64,000 nt of DNA from Escherichia coli (GCF_009931435.1 NZ_CP043414.1), one strand, 5' to 3'; positions 8,449-44,143 are shown, counted from the first letter of the stretch. Made by a program: numbers and translations. The notes: generated by a model from the letters alone, not told the origin.

Positions 8449-8467
8449 TAGACAGGAGACAGTCACA

Positions 8468-9574
8468 ATGAATAAAACAATAACGGCGCTTGCTATCATG
8501 ATGGCTTCATTTGCCGCAAACGCGTCTGTATTACCGCAAACTCCGGTGCCTTTTAAAAGTGGTACCGGAGCAATTGATAACGACACTGTCTACATTGGTT
8601 TAGGTAGCGCAGGTACAGCATGGTACAAGCTGGATACACAGGCCAAAGATAAAAAATGGATAGCGTTAGCTGCATTCCCTGGTGGACCGAGAGATCAAGC
8701 AACCTCTGCATTTATTGATGGCAATCTGTATGTGTTTGGCGGCATTGGCAAAAACAGCGAGGGCTTGACTCAGGTATTTAATGACGTACACAAATACAAC
8801 CCCAAAACCAATAGCTGGGTTAAATTGATGTCGCACGCACCGATGGGCATGGCGGGCCATGTGACTTTTGTACACAACGGCAAGGCTTATGTTACTGGCG
8901 GTGTTAACCAGAATATCTTCAATGGCTATTTTGAAGATCTCAACGAAGCTGGAAAAGATCCAACCGCTATAGAGAAAATCAACGCCCACTATTTTGACAA
9001 ACAAGCAGAAGATTATTTCTTCAATAAGTTTCTGTTGTCTTTTGATCCCTCAACACAGCAATGGAGTTACGCTGGCGAATCTCCCTGGTACGGGACGGCT
9101 GGTGCAGCGGTTGTGAATAAAGGCGATAAAACCTGGCTTATTAATGGTGAAGCCAAACCAGGACTACGAACGGATGCCGTATTTGAACTTGATTTCACCG
9201 GTAATAATTTAAAATGGAATAAACTTGCTCCCGTCTCATCACCAGATGGCGTCGCTGGCGGTTTTGCGGGGATAAGCAATGACTCACTTATATTTGCCGG
9301 GGGGGCCGGATTCAAGGGGTCGCGGGAAAATTATCAGAACGGTAAGAACTATGCGCATGAAGGCCTGAAAAAATCATATAGCGCTGATATTCATCTTTGG
9401 CATAACGGGAAATGGGATAAATCGGGCGAATTATCGCAAGGTCGGGCCTACGGAGTATCATTGCCCTGGAATAATAGTCTATTGATTATTGGCGGTGAAA
9501 CTGCAGGCGGCAAAGCGGTGACGGATTCAGTTTTGATCTCTGTGAAGGATAATAAAGTCACAGTACAAAACTAA
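8468..9574 (+). CDS. nanM: N-acetylneuraminate mutarotase NanM (Kelch-repeat protein)
   Basis: Internal start MNKTITALAIMMASFAANA (ATG at 8468) gives a signal peptide followed by Kelch beta-propeller repeats; lies directly downstream of nanC. Confidence 0.9.
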   Translation: MNKTITALAIMMASFAANASVLPQTPVPFKSGTGAIDNDTVYIGLGSAGTAWYKLDTQAKDKKWIALAAFPGGPRDQATSAFIDGNLYVFGGIGKNSEGLTQVFNDVHKYNPKTNSWVKLMSHAPMGMAGHVTFVHNGKAYVTGGVNQNIFNGYFEDLNEAGKDPTAIEKINAHYFDKQAEDYFFNKFLLSFDPSTQQWSYAGESPWYGTAGAAVVNKGDKTWLINGEAKPGLRTDAVFELDFTGNNLKWNKLAPVSSPDGVAGGFAGISNDSLIFAGGAGFKGSRENYQNGKNYAHEGLKKSYSADIHLWHNGKWDKSGELSQGRAYGVSLPWNNSLLIIGGETAGGKAVTDSVLISVKDNKVTVQN

Positions 9575-9638
9575 TGCTTCAGGGCCCCAGTAAAGGGGCT
9601 CTGCTATCAATTTGCCATTTCAATTACGCGAAAATTAT

Positions 9639-10619
9639 ATGAACGCAATAATATCGCCCGATTATTACTATGTTCTTACCGTTGCCGGTCAGTCTAATGC
9701 CATGGCGTATGGCGAAGGACTGCCATTACCGGACAGGGAAGATGCGCCTCATCCCAGGATTAAACAATTAGCGAGATTCGCGCATACGCATCCCGGAGGC
9801 CCCTCATGTCACTTTAACGACATTATTCCACTGACTCACTGCCCACACGATGTTCAGGATATGCAGGGTTATCACCATCCTCTGGCAACGAATCATCAAA
9901 CACAGTACGGCACCGTTGGCCAGGCACTGCATATTGCACGGAAATTACTGCCCTTTATTCCTGATAATGCAGGGGTTCTCATCGTTCCGTGTTGCCGTGG
10001 CGGATCGGCTTTTACCGCGGGCAGCGAAGGGACATATTCAGAACGGCACGGAGCCAGCCATGATGCTTGTCGTTGGGGAACGGATACTCCGCTATACCAG
10101 GATTTAGTCAGCAGAACGCGAGCCGCACTGGCAAAAAATCCGCAGAACAAATTCCTCGGCGTATGCTGGATGCAAGGCGAATTTGACCTAATGACCAGTG
10201 ACTACGCGTCACACCCTCAACACTTTAATCATATGGTTAAAGCCTTTCGTAGGGATCTAAAACAATACCATTCTCAGCTTAATAAAATTACTGACGCGCC
10301 GTGGTTTTGCGGCGATACCACCTGGTACTGGAAAGAAAATTTCCCTCATGCGTATGAAGCTATTTATGGCAATTATCAAAATAATGTTTTAGCCAATATT
10401 ATTTTCGTCGACTTCCAGCAACAAGGTGCAAGAGGACTGACGAACGCGCCTGATGAAGATCCAGACGATTTAAGCACGGGATATTTCGGTTCAGCGTACC
10501 GGTCAGCGGAGAACTGGACGACGTCACTGCGAAGCAGTCATTTCAGCTCAGCAGCCCGTCGGGGGATTATTTCTGACAGATTTGTAGAAGCAATTTTGCA
10601 GTTTTGGCGCGAAAGGTGA
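9639..10619 (+). CDS. nanS: 9-O-acetyl-N-acetylneuraminate esterase NanS
   Basis: 326-aa product from the ATG at 9639 (MNAIISPDYYYVLTVAGQSNAMAYGEG...), an SGNH-type esterase; completes the nanCMS operon. Confidence 0.88.
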   Translation: MNAIISPDYYYVLTVAGQSNAMAYGEGLPLPDREDAPHPRIKQLARFAHTHPGGPSCHFNDIIPLTHCPHDVQDMQGYHHPLATNHQTQYGTVGQALHIARKLLPFIPDNAGVLIVPCCRGGSAFTAGSEGTYSERHGASHDACRWGTDTPLYQDLVSRTRAALAKNPQNKFLGVCWMQGEFDLMTSDYASHPQHFNHMVKAFRRDLKQYHSQLNKITDAPWFCGDTTWYWKENFPHAYEAIYGNYQNNVLANIIFVDFQQQGARGLTNAPDEDPDDLSTGYFGSAYRSAENWTTSLRSSHFSSAARRGIISDRFVEAILQFWRER

Positions 10620-10689
10620 GCGTTCATTAATTTGATTTATTTGCATCCATCAACGCTTTTAACTGCTCCGGCGTGCGGCACTATAATGG

Positions 10690-11440
10690 TTTTCACAACA
10701 AGGAGCCATTTTCTTATACCACTTTCAGAGACCATCCGCTTATGCCACCGCCCTCTACGCAACTGTTTGCAGAGCACCTTCCCACCGAGTGGATACAGCA
10801 CCTCCTGACGCTTTCTGCTCATGCGACTATTTGTCGTCTTAACCTGAGCGCGGATGGCGAAGCGGGGATTAGCCTGCTGGCCCGCAGCGCTGTCACCCAG
10901 GAGCGCCAGCGCGTGGGGGCCCCCTGGTGGAATGGCTCTTCCGCCAGACCGCACAGACATGGGGCGCGGAACGTTACCTGAAGGATGACTGGCACGGCCT
11001 GCAACTTTTTGCCATTGATGGCGCACAGTTCAGGACACCTATGAACCTGAGTTGCGTGAATATTATGGCTCTGCCAACACATCCACTGAGCGGCAGAGCG
11101 CCTACCCGGTCATGCGTCTGGTGGCGTTAATGAATCTGGGAATCACATTCTGCTGAATGCCATGACCGCGGCCTACCGGCGGAGCGATACAGCGTGAGGC
11201 AACTAAAGCGGCGTCAGAAATCAGCTTTAAGTTCGCATTCCAGTTTATCGTGACAGAAATGATAGTGCAGGGAAATACGGCGTCACCAGGAACCATCCCG
11301 AAACGGCTGGAGCATCTGCGGGGTGCTCTGGAAGCGGTGTTCCCACGACTATCAAGGCCGAGGGCTGTTAAGGTATCAAAAACCCGTTATCCGGTGAAAC
11401 ACAGTGCTGCCCCGCTTAAGTGACGGCATTGTGTTTCTGA
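10690..11440 (+). mobile_element. IS4-family transposase remnant (frameshifted and internally deleted pseudogene)
   Basis: Three consecutive reading frames carry pieces resembling IS4 transposase (InsG-like): ...VTQERQRVGAPW, FRQTAQTWG...LQLFAIDGAQFRTP, AYPVMRLVALMNLGITFC, and a C-terminal ...RAVKVSKTRYPVKHSAAPLK. Frames are broken and no intact transposase or clear terminal inverted repeats were seen. Boundaries approximate. Confidence 0.55.
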
Positions 11441-11593
11441 CTGGCCTTAACTTTCCCTGAATCTCTGACGATCCTCACCATTGATATTTTCTTCATTCCT
11501 CACCAGAGAAATAAAAAATCACTATACTCATCAAAATATGATGATCACCTTTATTCAGGTGATCACCTTACTATTTTATACGGAAAATAAATC

Positions 11594-12244
11594 ATGAATA
11601 TCCGTCAATCATTACATGACCGAATCTATGCAGAATACCCTCAACAGGCTAAAGATATATTACTGTATTTCCCCACTTATGAAATTATGCCATCGACCAT
11701 AAAAATGGTTATGATTAATGAGGTGGTAGCTATAACACCGCAAGAAGATTTTTATACACCAGAGTCTGGTTATTTTACGACTGTCGCCCGACAGTTAGCG
11801 CTGGCTGGATTATCGGCAAGTAGTGGCGAAGTCTTACTCAACCATGGTATCTACCTGACCTCCGCACTGAAACTACCTAAAACACAGATCACAGCCACAC
11901 CCGCGGAGATCATTCTCTGGTCACCTATTGTAGAATGGGAGCTCGAACTCTTTGCCAATATAAAAGTTATTTTCGTTGGCGGCGATATCGCGCGAAAATG
12001 CCTTAACATCATCGCGAAAAAGCAAACACGTAAACATGCCATCCCTTCAACTCCGACGTACAAACTGATGAATAGCGAATTAGTCTGGAAAGGAATAAGC
12101 ATACTTCCTGGATATATTCTTACCGGAAAAAACCTGCTCATTGAAAAGTCAAAAATCGAAATGAATGTCGAGCAATTAAGAAAAGGAATTGCGATTTATC
12201 GCAATAGTAACAGTAACCATACGAATAATTCAGTTCATGAATAA
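11594..12244 (+). CDS. Hypothetical protein, low GC; possible uracil-DNA-glycosylase-superfamily fold
   Basis: 216-aa ORF in AT-rich DNA. Four short motifs occur in the order typical of UDG-like folds (VMINEVVAITPQED; GIYLTSALKLP; KVIFVGGDIARK; IPSTPTY). The match is weak and based on pattern only. Confidence 0.4.
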   Translation: MNIRQSLHDRIYAEYPQQAKDILLYFPTYEIMPSTIKMVMINEVVAITPQEDFYTPESGYFTTVARQLALAGLSASSGEVLLNHGIYLTSALKLPKTQITATPAEIILWSPIVEWELELFANIKVIFVGGDIARKCLNIIAKKQTRKHAIPSTPTYKLMNSELVWKGISILPGYILTGKNLLIEKSKIEMNVEQLRKGIAIYRNSNSNHTNNSVHE

Positions 12245-12715
12245 GAGATGAATCATTAATAACAAGAAATCACTGACAAACCACCTGTAAAAGGTCAATC
12301 ATTTTAGTTCAATTTCCTTTGTCATGATTATATTTTTATCGTCCTGACGATACTATTAACAATTACAATATTTATACCCTCCCCTGAACAAACAGAAAAG
12401 AACTCATACATTCGTTTATAATTCTGGTAATCCTGGCATCATACGTTTAAAATTTAAGGTGTTTGTTTTATAATCATGGTTCCAAAGACTATTGGTCACC
12501 AGAAAATGCCAGCCTTTTCGTGCCAGCTATATTTGTCCAGTGTGTTACCCCATCCAAAAATCATCCACATCCTGATGTTATGTTAGATATAGAGAAAACA
12601 GGTTGTACTGTGCAATATGCTAACCGCATAAGCGAATATAATTTCTAAGCTGATATTGTCTGGCTGTTGGGAGCTAAACAATATAAATATCGCCAGTTGC
12701 CAGAACGGTTATATA

Positions 12716-12741
12716 GACCAGGAGCGTTTCGGCTCCTGGTC
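12716..12741. terminator. 10-bp-stem hairpin between convergent genes (putative bidirectional terminator)
   Basis: GACCAGGAGC-gtttcg-GCTCCTGGTC perfect inverted repeat located 17 bp beyond the stop of the UvrD-like gene and between convergent ORFs; flanking T-runs are short. Confidence 0.4.
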
Positions 12742-12757
12742 TGTTTCGGACATATTA

Positions 12758-14872
12758 TTAATCAGCCACTAATAGCGGACTAGGGATACCAGATGATGAA
12801 ACAAACAGCCCTTTTACGGCACGGGTTGCAGCCACATGCAGTAACGCGCGCTCATTAAATAATGCATCACGCTGTTCAACGGGATCATCGGATGCTAATG
12901 CTTTTATTTCCGGCACAACGCCTTCGTTAATCCCCACCAGGAACACATACTGGAACTCAAGCCCTTTAATACGGTGCATCGTTGCAACTCGCACGCCTGG
13001 GCGTGCATCGCTGTCACCGCTATCATTGCCTAAATTAAATGTCTCAATTCCGGCGTCATTGAGTGCTGATGCGTAGCGGTCACAAGCATGTTTAGTACGC
13101 GCAGTAATGCAGATATCCTGAGAACGAACCTGATTCGCCAGCAATGCCTGAATTTGCTTGACGAGTGTTGCAGCCTCTTCTTTGAAATCTGCCGCATGCG
13201 TAATCATGGGCTTTTCCCCGTGCAGTAATGACAAATAATCATTACTGGTATCCGCTTCGCCATCGAGGTTATCAACCTTCACACCAGTTAACAGCCCAAC
13301 AGCAAATTGACGCGTCTCTTCTGTGGTCCGATAGTTAATCTTCAATTTTTTACTGCGACGACCACGGACGTTAATACCACACTGACCAAGAACGACCTTA
13401 TTGCGATAAATACGCTGATGCCCATCCCCGACAATAAACAGATCGTTGGGCGACTCGGGAACCAGGCTGCGAATAAGAGTAAATGCCGGGGCACCGATAT
13501 CTTGAGCTTCATCGACGACAATACTGCTATAAGGTAGTTGGACCTGCTTTTCTTTAAACAGAACAATAGCCTCATGCATGGCATCGCCCATTTCGCGCAG
13601 TTTGGCACGCGCCATTTGTGCTCTGAATTCTTCGAAAACTGGCCAGATTTTCGCCCGTTGAATACGGGATAACGCTGTACCACGTCCAACCCGGCTGACT
13701 TTGAGGTATTCCTCCCGGGTGTAAACCGCATTTGGCTGGACAACGCGTTGCCACTCTTCAGCATAGAAATTGTCAGGTAGCCCCAGTTCGGCAGGTGCCT
13801 GCTGCAAGGCATAGTTCCAGCATTTACGTCGCCCTTCATCGCTGTCGTATACCACGCGGAAATCATAACCGTGGCGTTTTAGTTGGTCGCTCATCCAGGC
13901 ATCAATGTTAACGACGTCAATACGCGCCATCTCTTCTCGCGTACACAACCGCTGGAGATTAGCGCGAATATCTGCCGCCAGGTTACGCGTAAAGGTCGTG
14001 AAAAGTACCTTCTTACCGGGTTTATCTACCAGACGCTGAGATAACCACCGCGCACGGTGCATTGCAACAACCGTTTTCCCTGTACCTGCACCGCCCAGTA
14101 CTCGTACCGGACCATTAGCGGGCGACTCCACCAGTTTTCGCTGGCTCGGGTGCAGAAATACACGCCATTTTTCTAAAGGCGCATTAAGCATCTGCAATAG
14201 TTCCTGTTCATTTTCAACGACATGGAAGCGACGTTTACTTCGTTCAATCGCCTCCATAAAGTCGTTGGTATCAACAGGCTCATCACGATGATCGTTAAAC
14301 TCTTCCAGCACTTCCTGGTAATCCAGCCCTTCTGCCAGCCAGTGCAGAGGTTCCCAGGCTTCTGCTGGCATTATGCTTTCAAGTTGATTAAGCCCGGCTT
14401 CATCGGTAAGCGCCATCACCTGATCAATAAAGACAGGCGGCACACCCAGGGCCAGAATCTGTTCCGCGCTGTAAGCTGCGAAGAGTTTCGGTTTATCAAC
14501 CACCGTTTCCGCTGCCGGTTTGATATAGCTAATATCAATGACCTGAATCGCGCCAGTAACCGGGTGAATCGAACAATCATGCCGCCGCGCCCAGTCATAT
14601 GCTTCGTCGTGTTTATCCACCCACATCAGCATATACAGAGCACCCTGTTCAGGTTTCAGAACAATGCCGCGATAAGTTTGATCGATTCGCACCGAATGGA
14701 CATTTTTACTGCGCGCATCGTGGATCTTTTCATAGTTAAGTCCATTACTGGTCGGGTCCTGACGGAATTTGGAGATGAATTCCTGCACCTTTTTTTGCTG
14801 TGCTTTTGGGATCCGCGCGAATGCGCCCAGAAAACCATCAGAAAGTGCCACCTTGGGCGTTTGCACCGTCAT
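12758..14872 (-). CDS. UvrD/Rep-like superfamily-1 helicase with an extra N-terminal domain of about 200 aa (last gene of the DISARM-like operon)
   Basis: SF1 helicase motifs in order: Walker A GGAGTGKTVVAMHRA, VVDEAQDIG (motif II), FIVGDGHQRIY (motif III), KINYRTTEE (motif IV), ATMHRIKGLEFQYVFLV (motifs V/VI). The N-terminal region (...NVHSVRIDQTYRGIVL...) is not helicase-like. Its start overlaps the stop of the upstream giant gene by 4 bp (ATGA-type coupling). Confidence 0.7.
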   Translation of the reverse strand: MTVQTPKVALSDGFLGAFARIPKAQQKKVQEFISKFRQDPTSNGLNYEKIHDARSKNVHSVRIDQTYRGIVLKPEQGALYMLMWVDKHDEAYDWARRHDCSIHPVTGAIQVIDISYIKPAAETVVDKPKLFAAYSAEQILALGVPPVFIDQVMALTDEAGLNQLESIMPAEAWEPLHWLAEGLDYQEVLEEFNDHRDEPVDTNDFMEAIERSKRRFHVVENEQELLQMLNAPLEKWRVFLHPSQRKLVESPANGPVRVLGGAGTGKTVVAMHRARWLSQRLVDKPGKKVLFTTFTRNLAADIRANLQRLCTREEMARIDVVNIDAWMSDQLKRHGYDFRVVYDSDEGRRKCWNYALQQAPAELGLPDNFYAEEWQRVVQPNAVYTREEYLKVSRVGRGTALSRIQRAKIWPVFEEFRAQMARAKLREMGDAMHEAIVLFKEKQVQLPYSSIVVDEAQDIGAPAFTLIRSLVPESPNDLFIVGDGHQRIYRNKVVLGQCGINVRGRRSKKLKINYRTTEETRQFAVGLLTGVKVDNLDGEADTSNDYLSLLHGEKPMITHAADFKEEAATLVKQIQALLANQVRSQDICITARTKHACDRYASALNDAGIETFNLGNDSGDSDARPGVRVATMHRIKGLEFQYVFLVGINEGVVPEIKALASDDPVEQRDALFNERALLHVAATRAVKGLFVSSSGIPSPLLVAD

Positions 14873-17800
14873 TTGTCACCTCCGGACAGATGTTGCAATG
14901 TATTTTCGTCAATTGGCCCGAATGCAACGTGCCAACCCCTGGTTGTGAATAATGGAATAAATTCTTGATTATCAATAATCAATGCCCATTTTTGTGATGG
15001 CCAGGCGAGATCGGCTTCCGCAATAATTTCACCTTCATCATTTTGCAATTCGTAGCCGAGAGTCGGCGCAGAGAGAGAATGAGACTGAAGCAACGCGATC
15101 TCTTCAGCGCTTAATAAGCCAAACTCAATAATCTCAGCCCAACTTTCATCAGTCTCTGGTACTGCCTCTGGCGTTGCCGTAACTTTAACGTCAACGCTTT
15201 CCTGCGGTAAATGTACGGCTTTACGGCTGGTAAAGGTCATATCCGGCAGGAACTGTAACAGGTTTACCAGTCGCCAGAAGCCATTGAGTCCCGCTTCATA
15301 ACCGTCATCCTGCGTATAGCGATCGTCAAAACAGATATGCAAACGCAGCCAGCTGCGCATTTGTGCGACACTGGTCGTCGGTTTAATGGCTTGTTGTGGC
15401 AACACCGAAGCCAGCTCAATAAATTGCTGCGATGAGTTACAGCTATCGAGTAAACCACCAAAGACAAACGGTTCGTCTGGCAAAAGCTCTGCTAGCCGCC
15501 AGTCTGGCGCGTTTTCCTGCATTTCATAGGCATACTTTTGTTTCGTTCCCGCGTCCTGTGACTTCTTCACATCCAACCACACCCAGGCATGTGCAGCAGC
15601 CATTTTCTGCCATAACTGCGTTCTTCCTCCCGGCTCGGCGAGATAATCCAGCAGCAGTGCAAAACTGTTGCGTTCCCGGAACGACGCTTCAAGGGCCGCA
15701 AAGTTGGTATCGTGAAACAGGTTATAAAACTTAGGCTGTTTCATATCCGGGTTATGCCCAAGCCCCAGGACATCCTGAACATGTTTAAGCCCAGGCTCTT
15801 TGAGATCGGCCCACGTGACTGTCCACACCCAGAAATTACCGCTATCCCGAATCGCCTGGCGTTTTTGCACATCCTCTGCGACGCTATTTTTGTGAAACGC
15901 AAAGCCATCAAGGAAAATAGCTACCGGTTTAATGGCATCAGACTGCATAAGCGGATATAGCACGTAATCCGGGCGACAAGGGATCCCCACAGCCTCTTTA
16001 GCGCCTAAATCCACCTGAGCTTTAAGATGCCAGCTCATCATCGGTTCGCTGCGGGTGTTAATAATCCACCCAGCGCCCTGATGCGCGTAACTGCGACTGA
16101 CAATCAGGTTTTTATTTTCTTGCAGGCAGCTAATAAACCGTTTTTCCAGCTCACTGCCCATCATGGCTTCGAGGGAAATGTTTTTGATGGAATCAATTAC
16201 CCGTATCGAATCTCTTGCCTGCAAAATTTTCGCCAGCAAGAGACGCGCCTGATCGCGGGAGACATACTTCATGCGCCCACGGTCACGGTAAGCGTAAACG
16301 CAACGATAACAACCATCTTTATGCGTATCATGGTTGCAACTGCATTCCACTATCGCCTGATAGGCCAGTTCAAGTAATTTCAGCAAATTGTCGGGAGTGC
16401 GCATCAGCTCTTTAAGAGAACCAGTCCCCCCCGGGACGGTATCGTAAATCACCAGATACTGCCGCCAGGATTCGCCTTCATTTTCCGGCTCGCGGTACAC
16501 AACGCCTTTCAGGTGATCGACATTCCCCTTGAAGTAATGTTTAAGGCCGAGCTGGATCGCCGCCCCAAGAGAAGCCTCCACGACACGGTCATTACTGTAA
16601 CTGCTTACCGGGAGCAGAATTCGCAACGCTTCTGACTCCAGCTGGCGATAGAGATAGAGATAATCTTCGAACTTCGCCTTTTCCGGTTCCGTGCGATATT
16701 TGCAGCTCAAATCATGACGTGGTTCATGATCGCGAGGACGCTGTACCATGCCGCACCCCAGGCAAACTTTAAACCCGGTTCGCTTCTTCGCTTCTCCGGC
16801 AATCATCAACTCATTGGCATCATCCGCCATTTTGCCGAAGTTGATATCCCGCAGGGTGACTTTGCTTAAAAATTCAAAACCAAACGGAACTTCGCCTTCC
16901 TCAATCGCGTATGCCGCCGATACATCTTCTTTTTCGAAACTAACCAATAGCTGACGCTGGAAGAAAGCAGGTTCACGGCTGTCGCTCTCGTCGCTGATCT
17001 GGCTATCACGTGCGCTGGCGCGGGCATACACCTGGCGAAGTTTCAGCAGCGTGGTTTTTTGTCCGGCGTCGGCCCACCCCGGTGTGCCACATTTCGGGCA
17101 ATATTTATGCTGGTCGCCCGTCTGGTCGATATTTTCGCTGTAGTTACAGTGGCTACAGATACGCCAGTTCTCCGGCTCAGAGACCTTCAGGTCTATCTGC
17201 TCAATTTCAACTTTATGCCCACCGGCATAGAAATTATTCAGCGGAGCCAGCTCAGCCAGCGCCGTTGATGCCGGGCGTTCATATTCGAAAGTGGTGTTTT
17301 GATATTCACGCGCTTCCCCGCCTTCTTTACGCCGCCAGAGCACAGAACGTAACGTAATACCGGCTTCCGGGAAGGCGTAGTTAGGCAGCAGACCTTCATC
17401 CGTGAGGAAATTCAGCGTCTGCTTATTGTTGATTTGATTGACTAGCGCCATCAGCGCCTGCCGTTCTGAAGTTAACTCGCGCATATCGCTGTCAAAGTTT
17501 TGATCGCGCGGCGCGTTCTCCAGCTTATCGATACTGCGCTTGAGTTTATCGATGCGTGAACGCAGAGATTTGCGATCTTCCACCAGCAGTTTTAACGCCT
17601 CTTCGATACGCTGCACCAGAGAGCGTTGTCCTGGCGCGCCCTGAAGATAAGACAACAACTGTTGGCGAGTTTCTGCGGCAAGATCGGGGAAGATCGCCGT
17701 AAATTGTGCAGCAATCTCCGCATGATGCTGTTCGATATATCTCAGTAAGTTATACGGAAAACCCGATTTACGCCCGAACTCCAGCTCATCCAGCATCTGT

Positions 17801-20800
17801 TTGACGTTTTTACAGATAGCGGATTCTGGTACACCGGTTTTCACCCAGTTATCCATACAAAAAGCTGCCAGCTGGCGTTCGAGAATAGCCGTTGCATTGA
17901 GGAAGACGCCAGGAGCCTGCACCTGGCCCTGCATCATCTCCAGCGGTTCTTCAAAGAAAAACTGATCGTGCGGGTTCCCTTCTGCCACGGTAATGTTTAA
18001 CGCGTTACCATCTTTACGACCGGCGCGACCAATACGCTGCAAGTAGTTGGCCTGAGCAGGTGGGACAGAACAGAGTAAAACGGTGGAAAGATCCCCAACG
18101 TCAATACCCATCTCCAGCGTCGGTGTTGCCGACAACAGGTTGATATTCCACGGTTGGTTGCCACGGTAGAACGATTTTTCGGTGGCTTCGCGATCTTCAC
18201 GGCTAAGCAGCCCCGTGTGTTCTGCGCCCTGCACGCGCGCGATGTCCATGTTCTCCCAACGCCAGGTCGCCATATTGTCGACTTCCTGGTAACGACCTTC
18301 ACAACGTAAAGAGAGACAAGGCGCATTACGCCACTGCCAGCCTTGATCGGCCGGAGCCCGGACAACCTCACGGCAACATGAGCAATTAAGCTGAACGACG
18401 TCACGGCTCACCACCAGCGCCGAAGGCACCAGTCCCCAGGCTTCACGCCCTTTGGTGTCAAAATCTTTTACTACTCCGGCTATTTTCAACGCCGTAAACA
18501 GGCGTCGTAACACTGTTTCCGCAACGCTACTGATAAACAGATTATTGCCGTTACTCAGCGTGCGATTGATCCAATGCTGATACCAACTGGGGTTAGACTT
18601 CGCGCCAATCAGGCGATGGAAACCATTAATTTTTTCAAACGACGCATAAGCCGGTTTACGCGTTTTCGGACCGATAGAAGGCATATAGCGCGATGTACGC
18701 TCTTTTTGCGTCATCATAAAGGTCGTGCCATCACGGCGATAACTTTCGAACGCCGGATGCATAACGGCCCCGGCCTGGCGTTGATACCAGATAACCCCCA
18801 GCGCCAGGTGCGCTACCTGCTCGACGCTCACACCGGACATCTCATCACCCAGCTCTTCACAAAGCTGTTGATGCAGGGCGGTAATTGCCGGATTAAAGCG
18901 TTCTTTATCCACTCCGGCAACGGCATAACCGGTGGCTTCCAGCGTACGTCCGATACGCGCGCGCAGGGTAAATTCGCTGTACACCTCCCAGTCGAGGCGC
19001 AGGGAAACCAGCTCCGGCAGATCGGAGTTCTCCGCCAGTTTGCCTTCATTTTTCAGTGTCTGATAATCATTCAGCCACTGCATATTTGGTGCGATGAAGT
19101 TCGCTGCAAAATGAGCATCGTCCGGTGAACGTTCACGCGTTTGTTGGCAAACACGCGCCGCGAACGCATCCAGCGGTAATGTCTCTTTTTCGCCAAGAAC
19201 ACTGGCGATTTGCCCACGAATCATCAGCGGCCAGGTTCGGGCAGTAAAAAAGCTGGCACGATGCGCGGCGTCTTGTACCGAGTCAGAAAACGTAATCAGC
19301 TTTTTATGTTCGTTGAACTGGCTGCCATAAAGCTGGTGAATCATCACCGCCGACAAACTGGCAGCCCGTGACCCCAGAATCGAAATCCCCTGTTTGCTGT
19401 TGCAGTACGGGCATTCATTAGCAAACTCCAGCTCGTCCTTACGCTCTTTGAGCATATCCGGGATCAGTACCTGCAACAGTTCCGTATGACCGCAATGTCC
19501 ACACTGGACGCTGGACTGTCGGTTCAGTTTCAGACAGGTAGGGCACAGTTTCTGGTGTGCGCCACTGACCGCTTTTTCGTTGTTATCCGGGAAAGCAAGG
19601 ACGATGGAGCGCCCTTTTTCAAAGAACTGGCGATAAATGCCGTCGAGGTCTGTTTCCAGCTGAACGCTTTGCCCATGACGCAGGCTGGCCCAGCCAGTTG
19701 CGTGGCAGTCACGGCAGTGGATAACCGGCAAATAGTGTTCGCGGTCTTCCACCGCCACATCATCGGCAAACACCAGTCTCGGCGTTTTCGCCACGCTGGC
19801 GACCAGACGACGCATCTCACGAAGCCACAACTGGGAGCGCAGTTGCACAAACGGCAGCACCGGGCGCGCTTTCTTCGCCTGGAGACGTTTTTGCCGATCG
19901 TGTTCCATTTCCGGTACTTCGAGACGTGCCTGTGCGATCAGCGCCAGAATGCTTTGCAGCACGCGTCGGGCATGGTCGGCGCTTTCTGCCAGCATAACCT
20001 GGAGATTTTCCAGACACTCTCGTTCAGAGAGGATCCCGCCTTGCAGATCATGGAGTAAGACATGCATCACGCTGTGGCGGCGTAACAGTGACCCCAGCGC
20101 AATACGCTTTTCACGCCCGTCGTCGCTCTCCAGATCGTCCGGGAGTTGCAAGTCGCTGTCGGGGAACCACAAAGGGATTTGCCCGTTAAGATACGCTACC
20201 GGGGTAGCGTAACTCTGCGGGTCCAGGGCCGAAGCGACCTCCTGCCCCGGATACTGACTGTACGCAATGGCGTAATCCTGCAAGTACTCCGCTGCCGTGT
20301 AGCGATCTTCGCGAATAACGGCGTCATCGGTAAACGGCTGGTCAAAGATTGTTTTTGCGTAATCGAGCAGTTGCCCCAGTTCGTCGCCGACGGTCGCTGA
20401 TGTCCCGACACAGGCGAATCGTTGGTTATCCACACCTATGTGATGCTTCAGACGTCGCACCAGACAGGCCAGATCCGACCCTTGCGCGCCATCAAACGTA
20501 TGCAATTCATCCACGACCAGGTAGCGCAATGAACCGGGCTGGTTGTAACGCCAGAGCGGCTGATCGCCAGGGCGCATCAGCAGGTAGTCGAGCATTTTGT
20601 AGTTGGTCAACAGGATGTCCGGCGGGCTTTCGCGCAGCGTGTGCTTGCAGGTAATGACCTTTTCTGCCGACATTTTTTTGCTGGGTTCGATTTCGCTGTC
20701 GCCGACAAACAGGCCGACGGTCACCTTGCCATGCAGTTGTGGATCGCTGGCGATGGTTTTGGCGAAACGGCTGGCCTGATCGGTTGCCAGGGCGTTCATC

Positions 20801-26144: not shown

Positions 26145-26146
26145 GA

Positions 26147-39113: not shown

Positions 39114-40766
39114 ATGTTAGCGCAGCTTTTTGAGCAGTTGTTTCAATCGATAGACTCTACACTGATCACCAATATTTTCATCTGGGCTGTTATATTCGTA
39201 TTTTTATCAGCGTGGTGGTGTGACAAAAAAAATATACATAGTAAGTTTAGAGAATATGCTCCAACCTTAATGGGGGCATTAGGTATTCTGGGTACTTTCA
39301 TTGGTATTATTATTGGGTTACTCAATTTTAATACTGAAAGTATTGATACCAGCATCCCCGTATTATTAGGCGGCCTAAAAACAGCATTCATTACAAGCAT
39401 TGTAGGTATGTTTTTTGCCATTTTATTTAATGGAATGGATGCTTTCTTTTTTGCCAATAAACGAAGTGCGTTAGCAGAAAATAACCCTGAATCTGTTACA
39501 CCTGAACATATCTATCATGAATTAAAAGAGCAGAACCAGACTCTGACTAAATTAGTCTTGGGTATTAACGGTGATAGTGAAGGTTCTCTTATTGCTCAAA
39601 TAAAATTACTACGTACTGAGATTAGCGATTCCTCGCAGGCACAATTAGCTAATCACACTCATTTCAGTAATAAGCTTTGGGAACAACTTGAACAATTTGC
39701 AGATCTAATGGCAAAAGGTGCTACAGAACAAATTATTGATGCTTTACGACAAGTCATTATTGATTTTAATGAAAATTTAACTGAACAGTTTGGTGAAAAC
39801 TTTAAAGCACTTGATGCCTCTGTAAAAAAACTTGTTGAGTGGCAGGAAAATTATAAAACGCAAGTTGAGCTGATGTCAGAACAATATCAACAAAGTGTCG
39901 AGTCTCTGGTTGAAACAAAAACTGCGGTTGCCGGGATTTGGGAAGAATGTAAAGAAATTCCTCTGGCTATGTCTGAACTGCGTGAAGTGCTTCAGGTGAA
40001 CCAACATCAAATCAGCGAACTCTCCCGCCATTTAGAAACCTTTGTCGCTATCCGCGATAAAGCTACAACCGTATTACCTGAAATACAGAACAAAATGGCT
40101 GAAGTGGGTGAACTGCTGAAATCCGGAGCTGCAAATGTTAGTGCATCTCTTGAGCAAACCAGCCAGCAAATACTTCTTAATGCAGATTCAATGCGCGTGG
40201 CCCTGGATGAAGGTACCGAAGGATTCAGACAATCGGTTACCCAAACACAACAAGCATTTGCCTCGATGGCACATGATGTCAGCAATTCCTCCGAAACTCT
40301 AACCAGCACGTTAGGTGAAACAATTACTGAAATGAAACAAAGTGGTGAAGAATTCCTGAAGTCACTAGAGTCGCACTCGAAAGAATTGCATAGAAATATG
40401 GAACAAAATACGACTAATGTAATTGATATGTTCAGTAAGACTGGTGAAAAGATTAACCATCAACTATCCAGTAATGCCGATAATATGTTTGATTCAATCC
40501 AGACATCATTTGATAAGGCAAGTGCAGGGCTGACTTCTCAAGTCAGAGAATCAATTGAAAAATTTGCTCTATCCATCAACGAGCAGTTACATGCTTTTGA
40601 GCAAGCAACTGAACGTGAGATGAACCGTGAAATGCAATCATTAGGTAATGCTCTGCTTTCAATCAGCAAAGGTTTTGTCGGTAACTATGAAAAACTTATT
40701 AAAGATTACCAAATAATTATGGGACAGTTACAAGCATTAATTTCTGCTAATAAACATCGAGGGTAA
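39114..40766 (+). CDS. zorA: ZorA-like MotA/ExbB/TolQ-family membrane protein with a long coiled-coil tail (Zorya)
   Basis: N-terminal hydrophobic helices (IFIWAVIFVFLSAWW; MGALGILGTFIGIIIGLL; FITSIVGMFFAILFNG) followed by about 400 aa of polar, heptad-like low-complexity sequence. Immediately followed by a MotB/OmpA-like gene and an HNH gene. Confidence 0.65.
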   Translation: MLAQLFEQLFQSIDSTLITNIFIWAVIFVFLSAWWCDKKNIHSKFREYAPTLMGALGILGTFIGIIIGLLNFNTESIDTSIPVLLGGLKTAFITSIVGMFFAILFNGMDAFFFANKRSALAENNPESVTPEHIYHELKEQNQTLTKLVLGINGDSEGSLIAQIKLLRTEISDSSQAQLANHTHFSNKLWEQLEQFADLMAKGATEQIIDALRQVIIDFNENLTEQFGENFKALDASVKKLVEWQENYKTQVELMSEQYQQSVESLVETKTAVAGIWEECKEIPLAMSELREVLQVNQHQISELSRHLETFVAIRDKATTVLPEIQNKMAEVGELLKSGAANVSASLEQTSQQILLNADSMRVALDEGTEGFRQSVTQTQQAFASMAHDVSNSSETLTSTLGETITEMKQSGEEFLKSLESHSKELHRNMEQNTTNVIDMFSKTGEKINHQLSSNADNMFDSIQTSFDKASAGLTSQVRESIEKFALSINEQLHAFEQATEREMNREMQSLGNALLSISKGFVGNYEKLIKDYQIIMGQLQALISANKHRG

Positions 40767-40772
40767 TCGATC

Positions 40773-41480
40773 ATGGATAAGATTATAGGGAAACAATTAC
40801 CTAAAAAAGATCAAGATAATGAACACTGGGTATCCATGTCAGACCTAATGGCAGGGCTGATGATGGTTTTTATGTTCATATCTATTGCTTATATGCACTA
40901 CGTACGTATTGAAAAAGAAAAAATTAAAGAAGTTGCCGTAGCCTACGAGAATGCTCAGTTACAGCTTTATAATGCTCTGGATATTGAGTTTGCAAAGGAT
41001 TTACAAGACTGGGATGCAGAGATCGATAAACAGACTCTGGAGGTTCGATTTAAATCACCGGATGTTTTATTTGGCTTAGGAAGCACAGAGCTAAAACCAA
41101 AGTTTAAACTCATTCTTGACGACTTCTTTCCTCGCTACCTAAAAGTTCTAGATAATTATCAGGACCATATTACTGAAGTCCGCATTGAAGGTCACACAAG
41201 TACTGACTGGACAGGAACAACGAATCCTGATATTGCTTATTTTAATAATATGGCACTATCACAAGGTCGTACACGTGCAGTATTACAATACGTTTATGAC
41301 ATAAAAAATATCGCGACACACCAACAATGGGTTAAAAGTAAATTTGCCGCAGTAGGTTATTCATCTGCACATCCCATTCTTGATAAAACCGGCAAGGAGG
41401 ATCCTAATCGCTCTCGTCGTGTCACCTTCAAAGTTGTAACAAATGCCGAATTGCAGATTAGAAAGATTATTCAGGAGTAA
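40773..41480 (+). CDS. zorB: ZorB-like MotB/OmpA-family peptidoglycan-binding protein (Zorya)
   Basis: Single N-terminal transmembrane helix carrying an Asp (SMSDLMAGLMMVFMFISIAY), with a C-terminal OmpA-like motif (NMALSQGRTRAVLQYV...SRRVTF). Separated from zorA by 6 bp. Confidence 0.65.
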   Translation: MDKIIGKQLPKKDQDNEHWVSMSDLMAGLMMVFMFISIAYMHYVRIEKEKIKEVAVAYENAQLQLYNALDIEFAKDLQDWDAEIDKQTLEVRFKSPDVLFGLGSTELKPKFKLILDDFFPRYLKVLDNYQDHITEVRIEGHTSTDWTGTTNPDIAYFNNMALSQGRTRAVLQYVYDIKNIATHQQWVKSKFAAVGYSSAHPILDKTGKEDPNRSRRVTFKVVTNAELQIRKIIQE

Positions 41481-41483
41481 GAG

Positions 41484-42587
41484 ATGAAATTATCTATCGA
41501 CATTTCAGAACTTATTCAATTAGGGAAGAAAATGTTACCAGAAGGAGTCGATTTTTTTCTGGATGAATCCCCTATTGACTTTGATCCTATAGATATTGAG
41601 TTATCCACGGGTAAAGAAGTTAGTATCGAAGATCTTGACCCTGGTAGCGGGCTTATCTCTTATCATGGCCGCCAGGTTCTTTTATATATTCGGGACCATT
41701 CAGGGCGTTATGATGCGGCTATCGTAGATGGCGAAAAAGGAAAACGTTTTCATATTGCCTGGTGCAGAACTCTTGATGAAATGCGCCATAAAAATCGATT
41801 TGAAAGGTATCATGCAACTAACCGCATAGATGGTTTATTCGAAATTGATGATGGTTCAGGTCGGAGCCAGGATGTTGATTTACGGGTATGTATGAATTGC
41901 CTCGAACGACTTAATTATAAAGGAAGTATTGATAAACAACGAAAAAGAGAGATTTTTAAATCATTCTCATTAAATGAGTTTTTTTCAGATTATAGTACCT
42001 GTTTTCGTCATATGCCTAAGGGTATCTATGACAAAACAAATAGTGGGTATGTCGAAAACTGGAAAGATATATCTAAATCAATACGAGAAAAGGCAAATTA
42101 TGTTTGTAATGATTGTGGCGTGAATTTATCAACCGCCAAAAACTTGTGCCATGTCCATCATAAAAATGGCATCAAATATGATAATCACCATGAAAACCTT
42201 CTTGTTCTGTGCAAGGATTGCCATCGAAAACAGCCCCTCCACGAAGGTATATTCGTTACCCAAGCTGAGATGGCTATCATTCAACGTTTACGTTCCCAAC
42301 AAGGGTTATTAAAAGCAGAATCCTGGAATGAAATATATGACCTGACTGATCCATCAGTGCATGGTGATATTAATATGATGCAACATAAAGGCTTTCAACC
42401 TCCTGTTCCTGGGTTAGATCTTCAAAACTCAGAACATGAAATTATTGCAACCGTAGAAGCTGCATGGCCAGGCCTTAAAATTGCAGTTAACCTTACTCCC
42501 GCCGAAGTCGAAGGATGGAGAATATATACCGTGGGTGAGCTGGTTAAAGAAATACAAACAGGAGCCTTTACGTCAGCAACGTTGTAA
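41484..42587 (+). CDS. zorE: ZorE-like HNH endonuclease (Zorya type II effector)
   Basis: HNH motif CNDCGVNLSTAKNLCHVHHKNGIKYDNHHENLLVLCKDCH. Lies 3 bp downstream of zorB, completing a ZorA-ZorB-HNH trio. Confidence 0.6.
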   Translation: MKLSIDISELIQLGKKMLPEGVDFFLDESPIDFDPIDIELSTGKEVSIEDLDPGSGLISYHGRQVLLYIRDHSGRYDAAIVDGEKGKRFHIAWCRTLDEMRHKNRFERYHATNRIDGLFEIDDGSGRSQDVDLRVCMNCLERLNYKGSIDKQRKREIFKSFSLNEFFSDYSTCFRHMPKGIYDKTNSGYVENWKDISKSIREKANYVCNDCGVNLSTAKNLCHVHHKNGIKYDNHHENLLVLCKDCHRKQPLHEGIFVTQAEMAIIQRLRSQQGLLKAESWNEIYDLTDPSVHGDINMMQHKGFQPPVPGLDLQNSEHEIIATVEAAWPGLKIAVNLTPAEVEGWRIYTVGELVKEIQTGAFTSATL

Positions 42588-42796
42588 ATTCCGAAACTCC
42601 GTGAAAGTTAAGACTTTCACGGAAGATAAATAAAATTCTCCTGATTTGTGACTCAAATTATAAAAGTCGTTTATGGCATAACTTGTCTGTTTTTTTGGTG
42701 TAATAGGTATAAAGGCATATGCTATGGTTAGCCTTATATTTAAAACTTTCCTCATACGGGTGAAGGTTAAAGCTTGGTAGATAGGTTACAGTCACA

Positions 42797-43406
42797 ATGA
42801 ATAAAGCAATAACGGTGCTTGCTATAATGATGGCTTCATTTTCCGTAAATGCGTATGTATTACCGGAAACGCCTGTGCCATTTAAAAGTGGTACCGGAGC
42901 AATTGATAACAACACTGTCTACATTGGTTTAGGTAGCGCAGGTACGGCATGGTACAAGCTGGAGAAACAGACCAAAGATAAAAAAATGGACAGCGTTAGC
43001 TGCATTTCCTGGTGGACCGAGAGATCAAGCAACTTCTGCATTTATTGATGGCAATCTGTATGTGTTTGACGGCATTGGCAAAAACAGTGAGGGCTTGACT
43101 CAGGTATTTAATGACGTTCACAAATACAACCTCAAAACCAATAGCTGGGTTAAATTGATGTCGCACGCGCCGATGGGCATGGCGGGTCATGTGACATTTG
43201 TACACAACGGCAAGGCTTATGTTACTGGCGGTGTTAACCAGAATATCTTCAATGGCTATTTTGAAGATCTTAACGAAGCTGGAAAAGATTCAGCGTACCG
43301 GTCACCGGAGAACTGGATGACGGTACTGCGAAGCAGTCATTTCAGTCGGGGGATGATTGTAGACAAATTTGTTGACGCTATTTTGCGGTTTTGGCGTGAA
43401 GGGTGA
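42797..43406 (+). pseudogene. Degenerate nanM'-nanS' fusion remnant: diverged second copy of the nanM 5' part joined to the nanS 3' end, with a frameshift
   Basis: MNKAITVLAIMMASFSVNAYVLPETPVPFKSGTGAIDNN... parallels the NanM N-terminus and frameshifts after ...QTKDKK. The second frame continues NanM-like (...GKNSEGLTQVFNDVHKYN...EDLNEAGKD) and then jumps directly into the NanS C-terminus (SAYRSPENWMTVLRSSHFS...FWREG). The following roughly 55 bp are near-identical to 10620..10677 after the intact nanS. Confidence 0.8.
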
Positions 43407-43413
43407 GCGTTCA

Positions 43414-44064
43414 TTAATTTGATTTATTTGCATCCATCAACGCTTTTAACTGCTCCGGCGAAAACGGTGGTTTGCGTCGGTGCAACATCGCATGGCAATT
43501 AGGGCACACAGGAAGCAAATCATTAACTGGATCCAGCTGGTAATTCTCTTTAATGGCTGAAAGCGGCACCAGGTGATGCACATGGATAAAGCCTTCAGCG
43601 ATATCACCATAGATCTTCACCAGATCAACGCCGCATACGTTGCACTGGCATCCATGATGTTCGACCGCTTTATCTCGGGCCTTTTTATCGCGTTCATAGC
43701 GGTTTACTGTCACCTTTATCGCCGCACCTTCAACGTATGTCTCCTGCGACGGCAACTCATCCGGGAACAGAACGTCGGCTATGGGAGCCGCAGCGGCTTT
43801 ATCCTGATGAATATGAAATCCCTGCTCTATGAGTAGTTTGACGCATTTAGATTTTATTCCGCCGGTGAAATCCGCAGGGGTAAATTGCGTCCCCGTCATC
43901 AATGTCGCTGCGATGCCAGCAATCGCCTTCGAGGGGTAACGTCGGCCATGATATTCAATCTCATACAACCGCGCAGGCTGGAACTGATGAGTTTCTCCCG
44001 CATCCCATAAATGGATAGCTTCGATGATATACCGCCGCGGAAGATGATCAGGGAGTTTATTCAT
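43414..44064 (-). CDS. HNH endonuclease family protein (McrA-like C-terminus)
   Basis: C-terminal CQCNVCGVDLVKIYGDIAEGFIHVHHLVPLSAIKENYQLDPVNDLLPVCPNCHAMLH is an HNH/zinc motif; the N-terminal domain is of unknown function. Confidence 0.6.
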   Translation of the reverse strand: MNKLPDHLPRRYIIEAIHLWDAGETHQFQPARLYEIEYHGRRYPSKAIAGIAATLMTGTQFTPADFTGGIKSKCVKLLIEQGFHIHQDKAAAAPIADVLFPDELPSQETYVEGAAIKVTVNRYERDKKARDKAVEHHGCQCNVCGVDLVKIYGDIAEGFIHVHHLVPLSAIKENYQLDPVNDLLPVCPNCHAMLHRRKPPFSPEQLKALMDANKSN

Positions 44065-44143
44065 GGAGAATGTCCTTATACGTTCTCAGAACAGGCAGCA
44101 AAAAAACAAATGAGATCAAGGTAATATATCTTCACTTGCAGGC

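What the first reader, a model, noticed from the sequence alone, without database searches (positions are those of the whole stretch)
8455..43460. Defense island bracketed by diverged direct repeats of the nanM-nanS segment
The intact nanM-nanS plus about 58 bp of downstream sequence (8468..10677) recurs in degenerate form at 42783..43458: the nanM 5' part with a frameshift is fused to the nanS 3' end (internal deletion of about 1.5 kb), followed by the same roughly 55-bp tail. In the right-hand copy that tail is the 3' end of the intact HNH gene at 43414..44064; in the left-hand copy only that short tail remains before the sequence diverges into the IS4-like remnant. About 32 kb carrying the three defense systems therefore lies between homologous repeats, which could mediate excision, inversion or cassette exchange. 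The copies are clearly diverged, so the duplication is not recent.
Basis: seen in the sequence. Interest (0 to 1): 0.6.

Follow-up and report, generated by a model that had tools for sequence, protein, structure and literature searches.

The report
Duplicated nan genes flanking defence island
The 32-kb phage-defence island in this E. coli window does lie between two diverged copies of the sialic-acid (nan) genes, but the second copy is most likely a decaying scar of how the island was joined to the chromosome, not a working excision device.

Summary
Window 8448-8962 matches 42777-43292 (93.8%, one 1-bp indel) and 10490-10673 matches 43289-43460 (12-bp indel). The right copy lacks 1,527 bp.

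The DNA between them is the known O-island-172 array: ARMADA II, Druantia III and Zorya II.

The right copy is not a duplicate of its neighbour. It is a remnant of a structurally different nan locus: a nanC-type promoter with a NanR-operator-like motif, only the last ~35 bp of nanC, then nanM. That form is the sole nan locus in genomes lacking fim. In E. coli GF4-3 and Escherichia sp. E1V33 it directly follows zorE. The window therefore looks like a tandem fusion of two alternative haplotypes of the uxuA-nanM interval: fim-nanC, or the defence island.

The left joint fuses the last 47 bp of the HNH gene to an IS4-family element that has lost its first 41 bp. That is a deletion joint, not a transposon end.

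The island-free nanS-HNH site occurs in 1,140 of 5,426 complete E. coli genomes. No recognisable recombinant excision product was found. The nan scar travels with IS1-moved copies at tRNA-Phe sites.

Overall this is an ordinary kind of feature, apparently undescribed in detail.

The parts
7272..7347 (+). Left unit: nanC upstream regulatory region with the NanR-operator-like motif GGTATAACAGGTATAAAGG (7329-7347)
   Evidence: Homologous to R 42645-42715 (70% over 76 columns, E = 1e-4) and to the E. whittamii nanM upstream region. The motif occurs only twice in the window, with 0 expected. The NanR assignment comes from my own knowledge of GGTATA repeats, not from a test here.
7732..8448 (+). nanC, intact (left unit only)
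   Evidence: Annotated as nanC in the near-identical record L001; ORF list.
8468..9574 (+). nanM, intact (left copy). Repeat segment 1 is 8448-8962.
   Evidence: It is 98.8% identical to the nanM of an island-free genome.
9612..10619 (+). nanS ORF, left copy (the exact start codon is uncertain). Repeat segment 2 starts at 10490.
10627..10673 (-). Orphan 3' end of the HNH gene (stop codon plus 14 full codons, 47 bp). This is the end of the left repeat.
   Evidence: It lies in a 59-bp run (10615-10673) identical to R 43402-43460. The intact gene is at 43414-44064.
10674..11432 (+). IS4-family transposase remnant. It is frameshifted, internally deleted and lacks the first 41 bp, including the left inverted repeat.
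   Evidence: Aligned to an intact IS4-family element on plasmid NZ_CP075717.1. Window 10674 corresponds to base 42 of the element, whose end begins CAATGCCGATCAGTTAAGG. The same joint is present in O55:H7.
11594..12244 (+). Gene annotated as uracil-DNA glycosylase family; variable accessory gene at the island's left edge
   Evidence: Annotation in L001. No PADLOC or NCBIfam hit. Absent in O55:H7, degenerate in GF4-3, and cut by IS1 in ATCC 8739.
12758..29005 (-). ARMADA type II: ArmD (12758-14872), ArmC (14869-21210), ArmB (21210-26144), ArmA (26147-29005)
   Evidence: PADLOC gives GajB-like UvrD, DruE-like helicase, type IIG/DrmMI-like methyltransferase and DrmD-like SNF2. The ARMADA II name is from 10.1101/2025.09.22.677730 and PMC12458937.
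29229..38902 (-). Druantia type III: DruE (29229-35552), DruH (35543-38902)
   Evidence: PADLOC DruE3 scores 2182 bits and DruH3 2551 bits, both full length.
39114..42587 (+). Zorya type II: ZorA2, ZorB2, ZorE
   Evidence: RefSeq annotation of near-identical records; ORFs.
42645..42776 (+). Right unit: nanC-type promoter remnant (42645-42715, motif at 42697-42715) followed by a diverged nanC 3' end (42742-42776)
   Evidence: The same structure precedes the sole nanM of E. whittamii, strain SCPM-O-B-8794, GF4-3 and E1V33.
42797..43292 (+). nanM' pseudogene: codons 1-165, with a +1 frameshift in the A7 run at 42980-42986
   Evidence: It is 92-96% identical to every E. coli nanM allele examined.
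43293..43460 (+). nanS' 3' end (to 43406) plus the intergenic tail and the HNH 3' end. It carries a 12-bp in-frame deletion relative to the left copy.
   Evidence: It aligns without that 12-bp gap to the E. whittamii and E1V33 tails, at 93.8% and 89%.
43414..44064 (-). Intact HNH endonuclease gene
   Evidence: 216-aa ORF. The stretch 43461-45076 is 99.0% identical to the island-free genome L003.
44144..45073 (+). Phosphorothioated-DNA-binding restriction endonuclease; shared right flank
   Evidence: NCBIfam NF045808, 436 bits against a cut-off of 180.
48422..48506 (-). tRNA-Leu(CAA), leuX; outer limit of the variable region
   Evidence: ARAGORN. No copy of its 3' end exists elsewhere in the window.

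Best explanation
The two nan copies are the scar of a single old recombination. It placed two alternative haplotypes of the uxuA-nanM interval in tandem.

Haplotype A is typical E. coli: uxuA-gntP-fim-nanC-nanM-nanS-HNH. Haplotype B is fim-less: uxuA, a remnant of a diverged gntP-like gene, the ARMADA II, Druantia III and Zorya II array, a nanC-type promoter, a nanC 3' stub, then nanM-nanS-HNH. Both haplotypes share nanM-nanS-HNH as their right flank. A chromosome that keeps fim and also gains the island therefore carries that flank twice.

Shown:
- both parental configurations and a 'null' configuration exist;
- the right copy has the B/null structure;
- the left copy is ordinary E. coli sequence;
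- the left joint fuses the HNH 3' end to an IS4-family element missing its first 41 bp, so it is a deletion joint.

Inferred:
- the original join lay further right (in or beyond HNH) and involved the IS4 element or an illegitimate end;
- a later deletion trimmed it to 10673|10674;
- the redundant right copy then decayed under relaxed selection by point mutations, a frameshift and lineage-specific deletions.

On this reading the repeats have no function. RecA-dependent deletion between them is mechanistically possible but is not seen. The island probably spreads within E. coli mainly by homologous replacement using the shared flanks, and occasionally by IS1.
For: 1. Left copy versus right copy. 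The left copy is 98-99% identical to an island-free genome. The right copy is 92-94% identical to it, while HNH and the genes beyond are 99% identical.
2. Haplotype A. The island-free site is found as one colinear piece in 1,140 of 5,426 genomes.
3. Haplotype B. In E. coli GF4-3 the order is uxuA, ~1.2 kb, ArmD through ZorE, spacer, intact nanM, nanS, HNH. gntP, fim and nanC are absent. In Escherichia sp. E1V33 the order is DruE-DruH-ZorA2-ZorB2-ZorE, spacer, a full 368-aa nanM.
4. Null haplotype. In E. whittamii and strain SCPM-O-B-8794, uxuA lies about 190 bp from nanM.
5. Shared structure. The spacer of R, GF4-3 and E1V33 aligns with the null spacer (promoter motif plus nanC 3' stub). GF4-3 and E. 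whittamii share the same non-A gntP-like stub.
6. Tail. The right tail lacks the 12 bp, like E. whittamii (93.8%) and E1V33.
7. Single origin. The tail|IS4' joint is shared by the window type and the O55:H7/O157:H7 type.
8. Independent erosion. O55:H7 and ATCC 8739 keep nanM positions 8821-9065, which the window's right copy has partly lost, but have lost the tail and HNH.
9. Decay. The right copy has 18 private substitutions against 2-4 per functional allele. Half are at codon positions 1 and 2, and 11 of 18 are C-to-T or G-to-A. Overall 14 changes are synonymous and 14 are not.
10. Left joint. The IS4 element is truncated 41 bp inside its end.
11. No mobile-element features. There is no leuX direct repeat and no integrase homologue in the window.
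Against: - The left end of the island in E1V33 could not be reached. GF4-3 is therefore the only fully documented B haplotype among 5,426 E. coli genomes.
- GF4-3's nanM-nanS is an ordinary E. coli allele with the left-type tail. It does not match the window's right copy base for base.
- B could in principle be derived from the fused type by deletion. The null-like gntP stub argues against that, but the stub is short.
- No intermediate was found that retains a complete IS4 and the HNH 5' part at the left joint.
- The direction of the event is not resolved: B segment into an A chromosome, or the reverse.
- A crossover within the 59-bp identical run at the end of the tail would leave no trace, so past excisions cannot be excluded.
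Confidence: 0.6

Rival explanations
1. One reading: the repeats are working recombination substrates, and the island is gained, lost or exchanged through them.
For: Perfectly identical runs of 74 bp (8867-8940) and 59 bp (10615-10673) are present. From established knowledge, these exceed the roughly 25-30 bp minimum for RecA-dependent exchange in E. coli. The island-free nanS-HNH site exists in 1,140 genomes. A crossover in the 59-bp run would give exactly that product.
Against: The product of a crossover in nanM is absent from all 5,426 genomes. No island-free genome has the right-type tail. The two-copy arrangement has persisted long enough for island variants to diverge by 2% in the core and 7% in the IS4 remnant. 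In the commonest variant (O55/O157) the right tail and HNH are gone, so only 36 bp and 245 bp of nanM' remain. Inversion is impossible for direct repeats.
Confidence: 0.13
2. An in-place tandem duplication of nanM-nanS created the copies around an island already at that position, and one copy then diverged slowly.
For: The copies are direct and colinear and share the same right boundary. The right copy's excess substitutions look like pseudogene decay.
Against: The right unit differs structurally from the left: promoter fused to a nanC stub, no nanC, and a 12-bp in-frame indel. These features are shared with fim-less Escherichia genomes. In GF4-3 and E1V33 the same zorE-spacer-nanM junction exists, with no second nanM found in either. 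A local duplication does not explain the truncated IS4 at the joint.
Confidence: 0.07
3. The island arrived as a circular or integrative element that had captured a nan locus. Either a circle [IS4-UDG-island-nan'-tail'] integrated Campbell-style by a single crossover in the tail, or a leuX-targeting satellite-like element delivered it.
For: A single crossover in the identical 59 bp would produce exactly the present order. It would also explain why both copies end at the same base. A published model has Zorya-Druantia-ARMADA arrays delivered by tRNA-targeting elements with 16-20-nt repeats (PMC12458937). Integrase remnants lie next to leuX in related genomes.
Against: The IS4 at the joint is truncated internally, so the joint is not an IS end or a circle junction made by transposase. 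There is no copy of the leuX 3' end and no integrase homologue in the window. The integrase remnants in other genomes lie outside the repeats, to the right of the restriction gene. At pheU in ATCC 8739 the array is bounded by two IS1 copies and still carries the nanM' scar. That points to secondary movement from the nan locus, not independent delivery.
Confidence: 0.17

Closest known systems
[quoted passage not shown]
   Same: Same nine defence genes in the same order and orientation. The O55:H7 version is 97.8% identical over window 12248-42812. It lies between nanS and leuX, with the same nanS-tail-IS4' left joint. The systems are experimentally shown to defend against phages, with synergy (10.1101/2025.09.22.677730; PMC12458937).
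   Different: The window type keeps the UDG-family gene, a longer nanM'-nanS' remnant and the intact HNH gene. O55/O157 have a 249-bp nanM' fragment fused to the region upstream of the restriction gene. The three papers I checked do not mention nanM, nanS or flanking repeats.
Zorya-Druantia-ARMADA array of E. coli ATCC 8739 at tRNA-Phe
   Same: Same array at 98% identity, with the same zorE-spacer-nanM' scar of the O55 type.
   Different: It lies between two IS1 copies inside a pheU island with an integrase, far from nan and leuX. It starts inside the UDG gene (window-equivalent 12080). I read it as a secondary IS1-mediated translocation; this is an inference.
Islands acquired by flank-homology recombination, homology-facilitated illegitimate recombination or Campbell-type single crossover
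   Same: The repeat consists of ordinary chromosomal flank. One copy is contiguous with the incoming DNA. One joint is homologous and the other illegitimate. No integrase or attachment site is involved.
   Different: The event was not observed here. The present left joint is a secondary deletion endpoint, so the original mechanism cannot be read directly.
tRNA-associated integrative islands (P4-type integrase, short direct repeats from the tRNA 3' end)
   Same: The location is next to leuX, and neighbouring segments in other strains carry integrase remnants.
   Different: The repeats here are 0.2-0.5-kb pieces of nan genes, not 16-20-nt tRNA ends. There is no integrase in the window and no leuX repeat.

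Membership tests
[quoted passage not shown] | ZorA2-ZorB2-ZorE, DruH-DruE and ArmA-ArmB-ArmC-ArmD present, in the conserved order | tested here: met
   PADLOC gives full-length DruE3 and DruH3 hits, and DrmD-like, IIG/DrmMI-like, DruE-like and GajB-like hits for the four Arm genes. Near-identical records annotate the Zor genes. The region is colinear with O55:H7 at 97.8%. Naming follows.
[quoted passage not shown] | Anti-phage activity | not testable with these tools
   Shown experimentally for EDL933, NCTC 12900 and ATCC 8739 homologues in the cited preprints; not tested for this sequence.
tRNA-targeting integrative element (genomic island with attL/attR) | Short direct repeat of the tRNA 3' end at the far boundary | tested here: not met
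   No 16-20-mer from the leuX 3' region recurs in the window, allowing one mismatch.
tRNA-targeting integrative element (genomic island with attL/attR) | Tyrosine integrase next to the tRNA | tested here: not met
   tblastn with the tyrosine integrase encoded next to tRNA-Phe in ATCC 8739 finds nothing in the window. The 682-aa ORF next to leuX has no NCBIfam match.
Composite transposon / IS-bounded segment | Two IS copies with intact ends flanking the segment | tested here: not met
   The window has only one IS4-family remnant, at the left, lacking its first 41 bp and inverted repeat. No IS lies at the right. The ATCC 8739 copy is flanked by two IS1 elements.
Recombination-generated flank duplication (haplotype fusion) | The repeat is chromosomal flank sequence, and each parental single-copy configuration exists | tested here: met
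   Haplotype A in 1,140 genomes. Haplotype B in GF4-3 and, for the right side, E1V33. Null haplotype in E. whittamii and SCPM-O-B-8794.
Recombination-generated flank duplication (haplotype fusion) | The copy adjacent to the insert carries the donor haplotype's structure | tested here: met
   Promoter plus nanC stub plus nanM, and a tail without the 12 bp, are shared with B and null genomes.
Recombination-generated flank duplication (haplotype fusion) | The original joints are identifiable | tested here: inconclusive
   The left joint is a secondary deletion endpoint. The right crossover cannot be placed because HNH is 99% conserved and no intact B-type HNH is available for comparison.
Active excision by recombination between the repeats | Recombinant deletion products present in natural genomes | tested here: not met
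   The nanC + nanM' chimera is found in 0 of 5,426 genomes. Intact nanS with a right-type tail is not found. Crossovers within the last 59 identical bp would be undetectable.

The most novel reading that the evidence does not exclude
[quoted passage not shown] The copies at tRNA-Phe sites, taken as evidence for delivery by separate mobile elements, would be included. On this reading the array first sat in a fim-less Escherichia haplotype, where it occupies the place of gntP-fim-nanC. The nan promoter and nanM' scar after zorE would then be a provenance barcode. Spread within E. coli would be by flank recombination and IS1, not by satellite-like integrative elements. About 569 of the 587 genomes matching zorE extend at least a few bases into the spacer, and 57 of 60 sampled rows cover it fully.
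Probability: 0.35. Interest if true: 0.5.

Novelty: new member of a known kind. Interest (0 to 1): 0.33.

Why it matters
The island is one of the best-studied multi-system defence arrays in E. coli. It accounts for most phage resistance in EDL933, according to 10.1101/2025.09.22.677730. How it is bounded and how it moves affects two things: predictions of its stability in EHEC, and the general model that large defence islands are delivered by tRNA-targeting elements.

The analysis points to a different route for this locus. The array and the fim-nanC cluster are alternative occupants of one chromosomal interval. The common E. coli arrangement looks like a fusion that duplicated the shared flank.

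The scar gives a simple marker for tracing the array's movements, for example to pheU and pheV through IS1. It also shows that the array has not been lost through its own repeats in any way that leaves a recognisable junction in sequenced genomes. This is a useful piece of comparative genomics, not a new mechanism.

Tried and rejected
1. Foreign-species origin of nanM'. An exact 22-mer spanning the right-type indel found nothing in 100,044 species genomes. A NanM' peptide scan returned only four loci, none closer than E. coli's own alleles. A search of 5.8 billion proteins found only ordinary E. coli NanM fragments at 93-94%. Per-segment identities showed that nanM' is not the E1V33 or GF4-3 allele, although BLAST alignments ran through it. 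I therefore dropped 'imported from another species'. The preferred reading is an old pseudogene with a long private branch.

2. Walking leftward in E1V33 with exact-protein look-ups. DruH worked. The next protein, ArmA, is shared by thousands of assemblies, so the walk left that genome. The left end in E1V33 remains unseen.

3. IS4 end as a transposition junction. Rejected, because the remnant starts 41 bp inside the element.

4. leuX attachment-site repeats and an integrase in the window. None were found.

5. Recombinant excision products. Two chimeric queries were both negative.

6. The literature held in the library. OI-172 and the array are described, but no text was found on nanM or nanS duplication.


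Full report
**Observation.** A self-comparison of the window shows two colinear direct matches. L 8448-8962 matches R 42777-43292 (93.8%, one 1-bp gap). L 10490-10673 matches R 43289-43460 (12-bp indel). Apart from the fimB/fimE paralogy and one 38-bp inverted repeat, no other extended self-similarity exists. The right copy lacks L 8963-10489 (1,527 bp). It has a frameshift in an A7 run (42980-42986) and ends inside the intact HNH gene at 43414-44064. The left copy keeps only the last 47 bp of that gene before an IS4-family remnant.

**Context.** The window is the E. coli fim-nanCMS to leuX-ahr region. The DNA between the repeats is:
- a UDG-family gene;
- ARMADA II (ArmD, ArmC, ArmB, ArmA);
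- Druantia III (DruE, DruH);
- Zorya II (ZorA2, ZorB2, ZorE).

These identifications rest on PADLOC and RefSeq annotation of near-identical records. This is the array described on O-island 172 of EDL933 and in ATCC 8739. Those papers do not mention nanM, nanS or flanking repeats.

**The two copies are not equivalent.** I compared both with an island-free genome, NZ_CM177019.1.

| Segment | Identity to the island-free genome |
|---|---|
| Left copy | 98-99% |
| Right nanM' | 94.4% |
| Right tail | 92.4%, plus the 12-bp indel |
| HNH and beyond (43461-45076) | 99.0% |

No intact nanM in 5,426 complete E. coli genomes is closer than about 94-96% to nanM'. Searches of species genomes and of 5.8 billion proteins also found no closer intact allele. 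The divergence is mostly a long private branch. nanM' has 18 private substitutions in 495 bp, against 2-4 for each functional allele. Half fall at codon positions 1 and 2, and 11 are C-to-T or G-to-A. Overall the changes are 14 synonymous and 14 non-synonymous. This fits an old pseudogene rather than a foreign gene.

**The empty site and other haplotypes.** A chimeric query, L 9673-10673 joined to R 43461-44460, matches as one colinear piece in 1,140 of 5,426 genomes. So nanS-HNH without the island is common. The left joint (nanS-tail-IS4') occurs in about 446 genomes. The window-type right joint occurs in 92.

Three further configurations were decisive.
- **Null.** In E. whittamii and 'E. coli' SCPM-O-B-8794, uxuA lies about 190 bp from nanM. 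gntP, fim and nanC are all absent.
- **B, fully seen.** In E. coli GF4-3 the same interval holds the whole array: uxuA, a gntP-like stub, a UDG remnant, ArmD through ZorE, a spacer, then an intact nanM-nanS-HNH.
- **B, right side only.** Escherichia sp. E1V33 has DruE-DruH-ZorA2-ZorB2-ZorE, the spacer and a full-length nanM. No second nanM was detected.

The spacer after zorE aligns with the null-type nanM upstream region in the window, GF4-3 and E1V33. It contains a promoter segment homologous to the fimB-nanC intergenic region at 7272-7347, with a GGTATA-repeat motif found only at those two places in the window. It also contains a diverged stub of the nanC 3' end. GF4-3 and E. whittamii share the same short non-A sequence after the uxuA-gntP breakpoint. 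The right tail lacks the 12 bp, as in E. whittamii (93.8%) and E1V33.

**Interpretation.** The uxuA-nanM interval has alternative occupants: gntP-fim-nanC (A), the defence array (B), or nothing (null). The window carries A followed by B, so the shared right flank is present twice. The right copy is B's native flank, made redundant and decaying.

The fusion appears to have happened once. O55:H7 and O157:H7 share the same tail|IS4' joint, although the IS4 remnant differs by 7% and the island core by 2%.

The right copy was once longer. O55:H7 and ATCC 8739 retain nanM positions 8821-9065, which the window's copy has partly lost. They have in turn lost the tail and HNH.

**The left joint.** Alignment to an intact IS4-family element shows that the remnant starts at base 42 of the element and lacks the inverted repeat. 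The 10673|10674 boundary is therefore a deletion endpoint. It is not a transposition junction or an attachment site. The original join probably lay further right; this is an inference.

**Do the repeats act?** They are direct, so only deletion is possible. Identical runs of 74 and 59 bp would allow RecA-dependent exchange. However:
- the nanC + nanM' deletion product is absent from all 5,426 genomes;
- no island-free genome has the right-type tail.

A crossover in the terminal 59 identical bases would be invisible, so rare excision cannot be excluded.

There is no leuX-derived repeat and no integrase homologue in the window.

**Travel of the scar.** zorE is followed by spacer sequence in about 569 genomes; 57 of 60 sampled rows cover the spacer fully. 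In ATCC 8739 an IS1-flanked copy sits in a tRNA-Phe island. It runs from the UDG 3' 165 bp through ZorE, the spacer and the 249-bp nanM', followed by ISKpn26. In HH194M only an IS1-truncated zorE, the spacer and nanM' remain, at another tRNA-Phe. This suggests that the tRNA-Phe copies derive from the nan locus.

**Verdict.** The 'not recent' reading is supported. The 'excision, inversion or cassette exchange' reading is largely unsupported. The feature is a flank duplication produced by haplotype fusion. That is a known kind of event, though its detail is apparently undescribed for this well-known island.

Noticed in passing
window 21775-22847 (inside armB, 21210-26144, minus strand): About 1 kb of the ARMADA methyltransferase gene is hypervariable. 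The window matches GF4-3 at 98.5% on both sides but only 77.8% or not at all across 21819-22847. The match to ATCC 8739 breaks at 21775-22056. O55:H7 is like the window. This may be a swapped target-recognition segment.
   Followed up: partly
window 11594-12244: A gene annotated as uracil-DNA glycosylase family sits at the island's left edge and has no PADLOC or NCBIfam match. It is present in window-type islands, missing almost exactly as an ORF-sized indel in O55:H7, degenerate (72%) in GF4-3, and cut by IS1 in ATCC 8739. Whether it belongs to the defence array is unknown.
   Followed up: partly
L018 (ATCC 8739, NZ_CP022959.1 4238826-4272940) and L019 (HH194M): The array with its nanM' scar lies between two IS1 copies inside tRNA-Phe islands. 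In HH194M only a truncated zorE, the spacer and nanM' are left between IS1 copies. This looks like composite-transposon movement followed by IS1 deletion. Target-site duplications were not checked.
   Followed up: partly
window 45076-48421 and the equivalent stretch in L003, L004, L005: The segment between the phosphorothioate-dependent restriction gene and leuX differs in every genome examined. Here it is a 682-aa ORF with no family match. RMDEC465 has McrBC plus a type I R-M system. Strain e1-39 has PDDEXK and JetD-like genes plus BrxR. O55:H7 has Kiwa and other genes. This is a second, independent defence hot spot next to leuX.
   Followed up: no
window 14869-21210 (ArmC), residues 2021-2096: The C-terminus of ArmC matches the PADLOC ZorE2 HNH profile (E = 6e-9). 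The same HNH type therefore occurs in two of the three co-located systems.
   Followed up: no
L002 (NZ_CP144928.1) locus 16882-19267: In strain SCPM-O-B-12142 an IS1 joins a truncated fimD directly to a truncated zorA2. The deletion removes fimD 5' through fimB, nanCMS, ARMADA and Druantia, but leaves zorB2-zorE-nanM'-HNH.
   Followed up: no
L008 9118-9273 and L009 9118-9273: In Escherichia sp. E1V33 and E. whittamii, nanM is followed after about 96 bp by only the last ~190 bp of nanS. These species therefore lack most of nanS through a deletion different from the one in the window's right copy.
   Followed up: partly
window 56372-56409 and 60548-60585: A 38-bp inverted repeat (92%) about 4 kb apart in the core region right of leuX. 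Its nature is unknown.
   Followed up: no
window 43062-43406: The nanM'-nanS' deletion joint is in frame. It creates a 114-aa ORF that fuses NanM residues to the NanS C-terminus. This is probably coincidental, because the upstream frameshift disrupts the gene.
   Followed up: no
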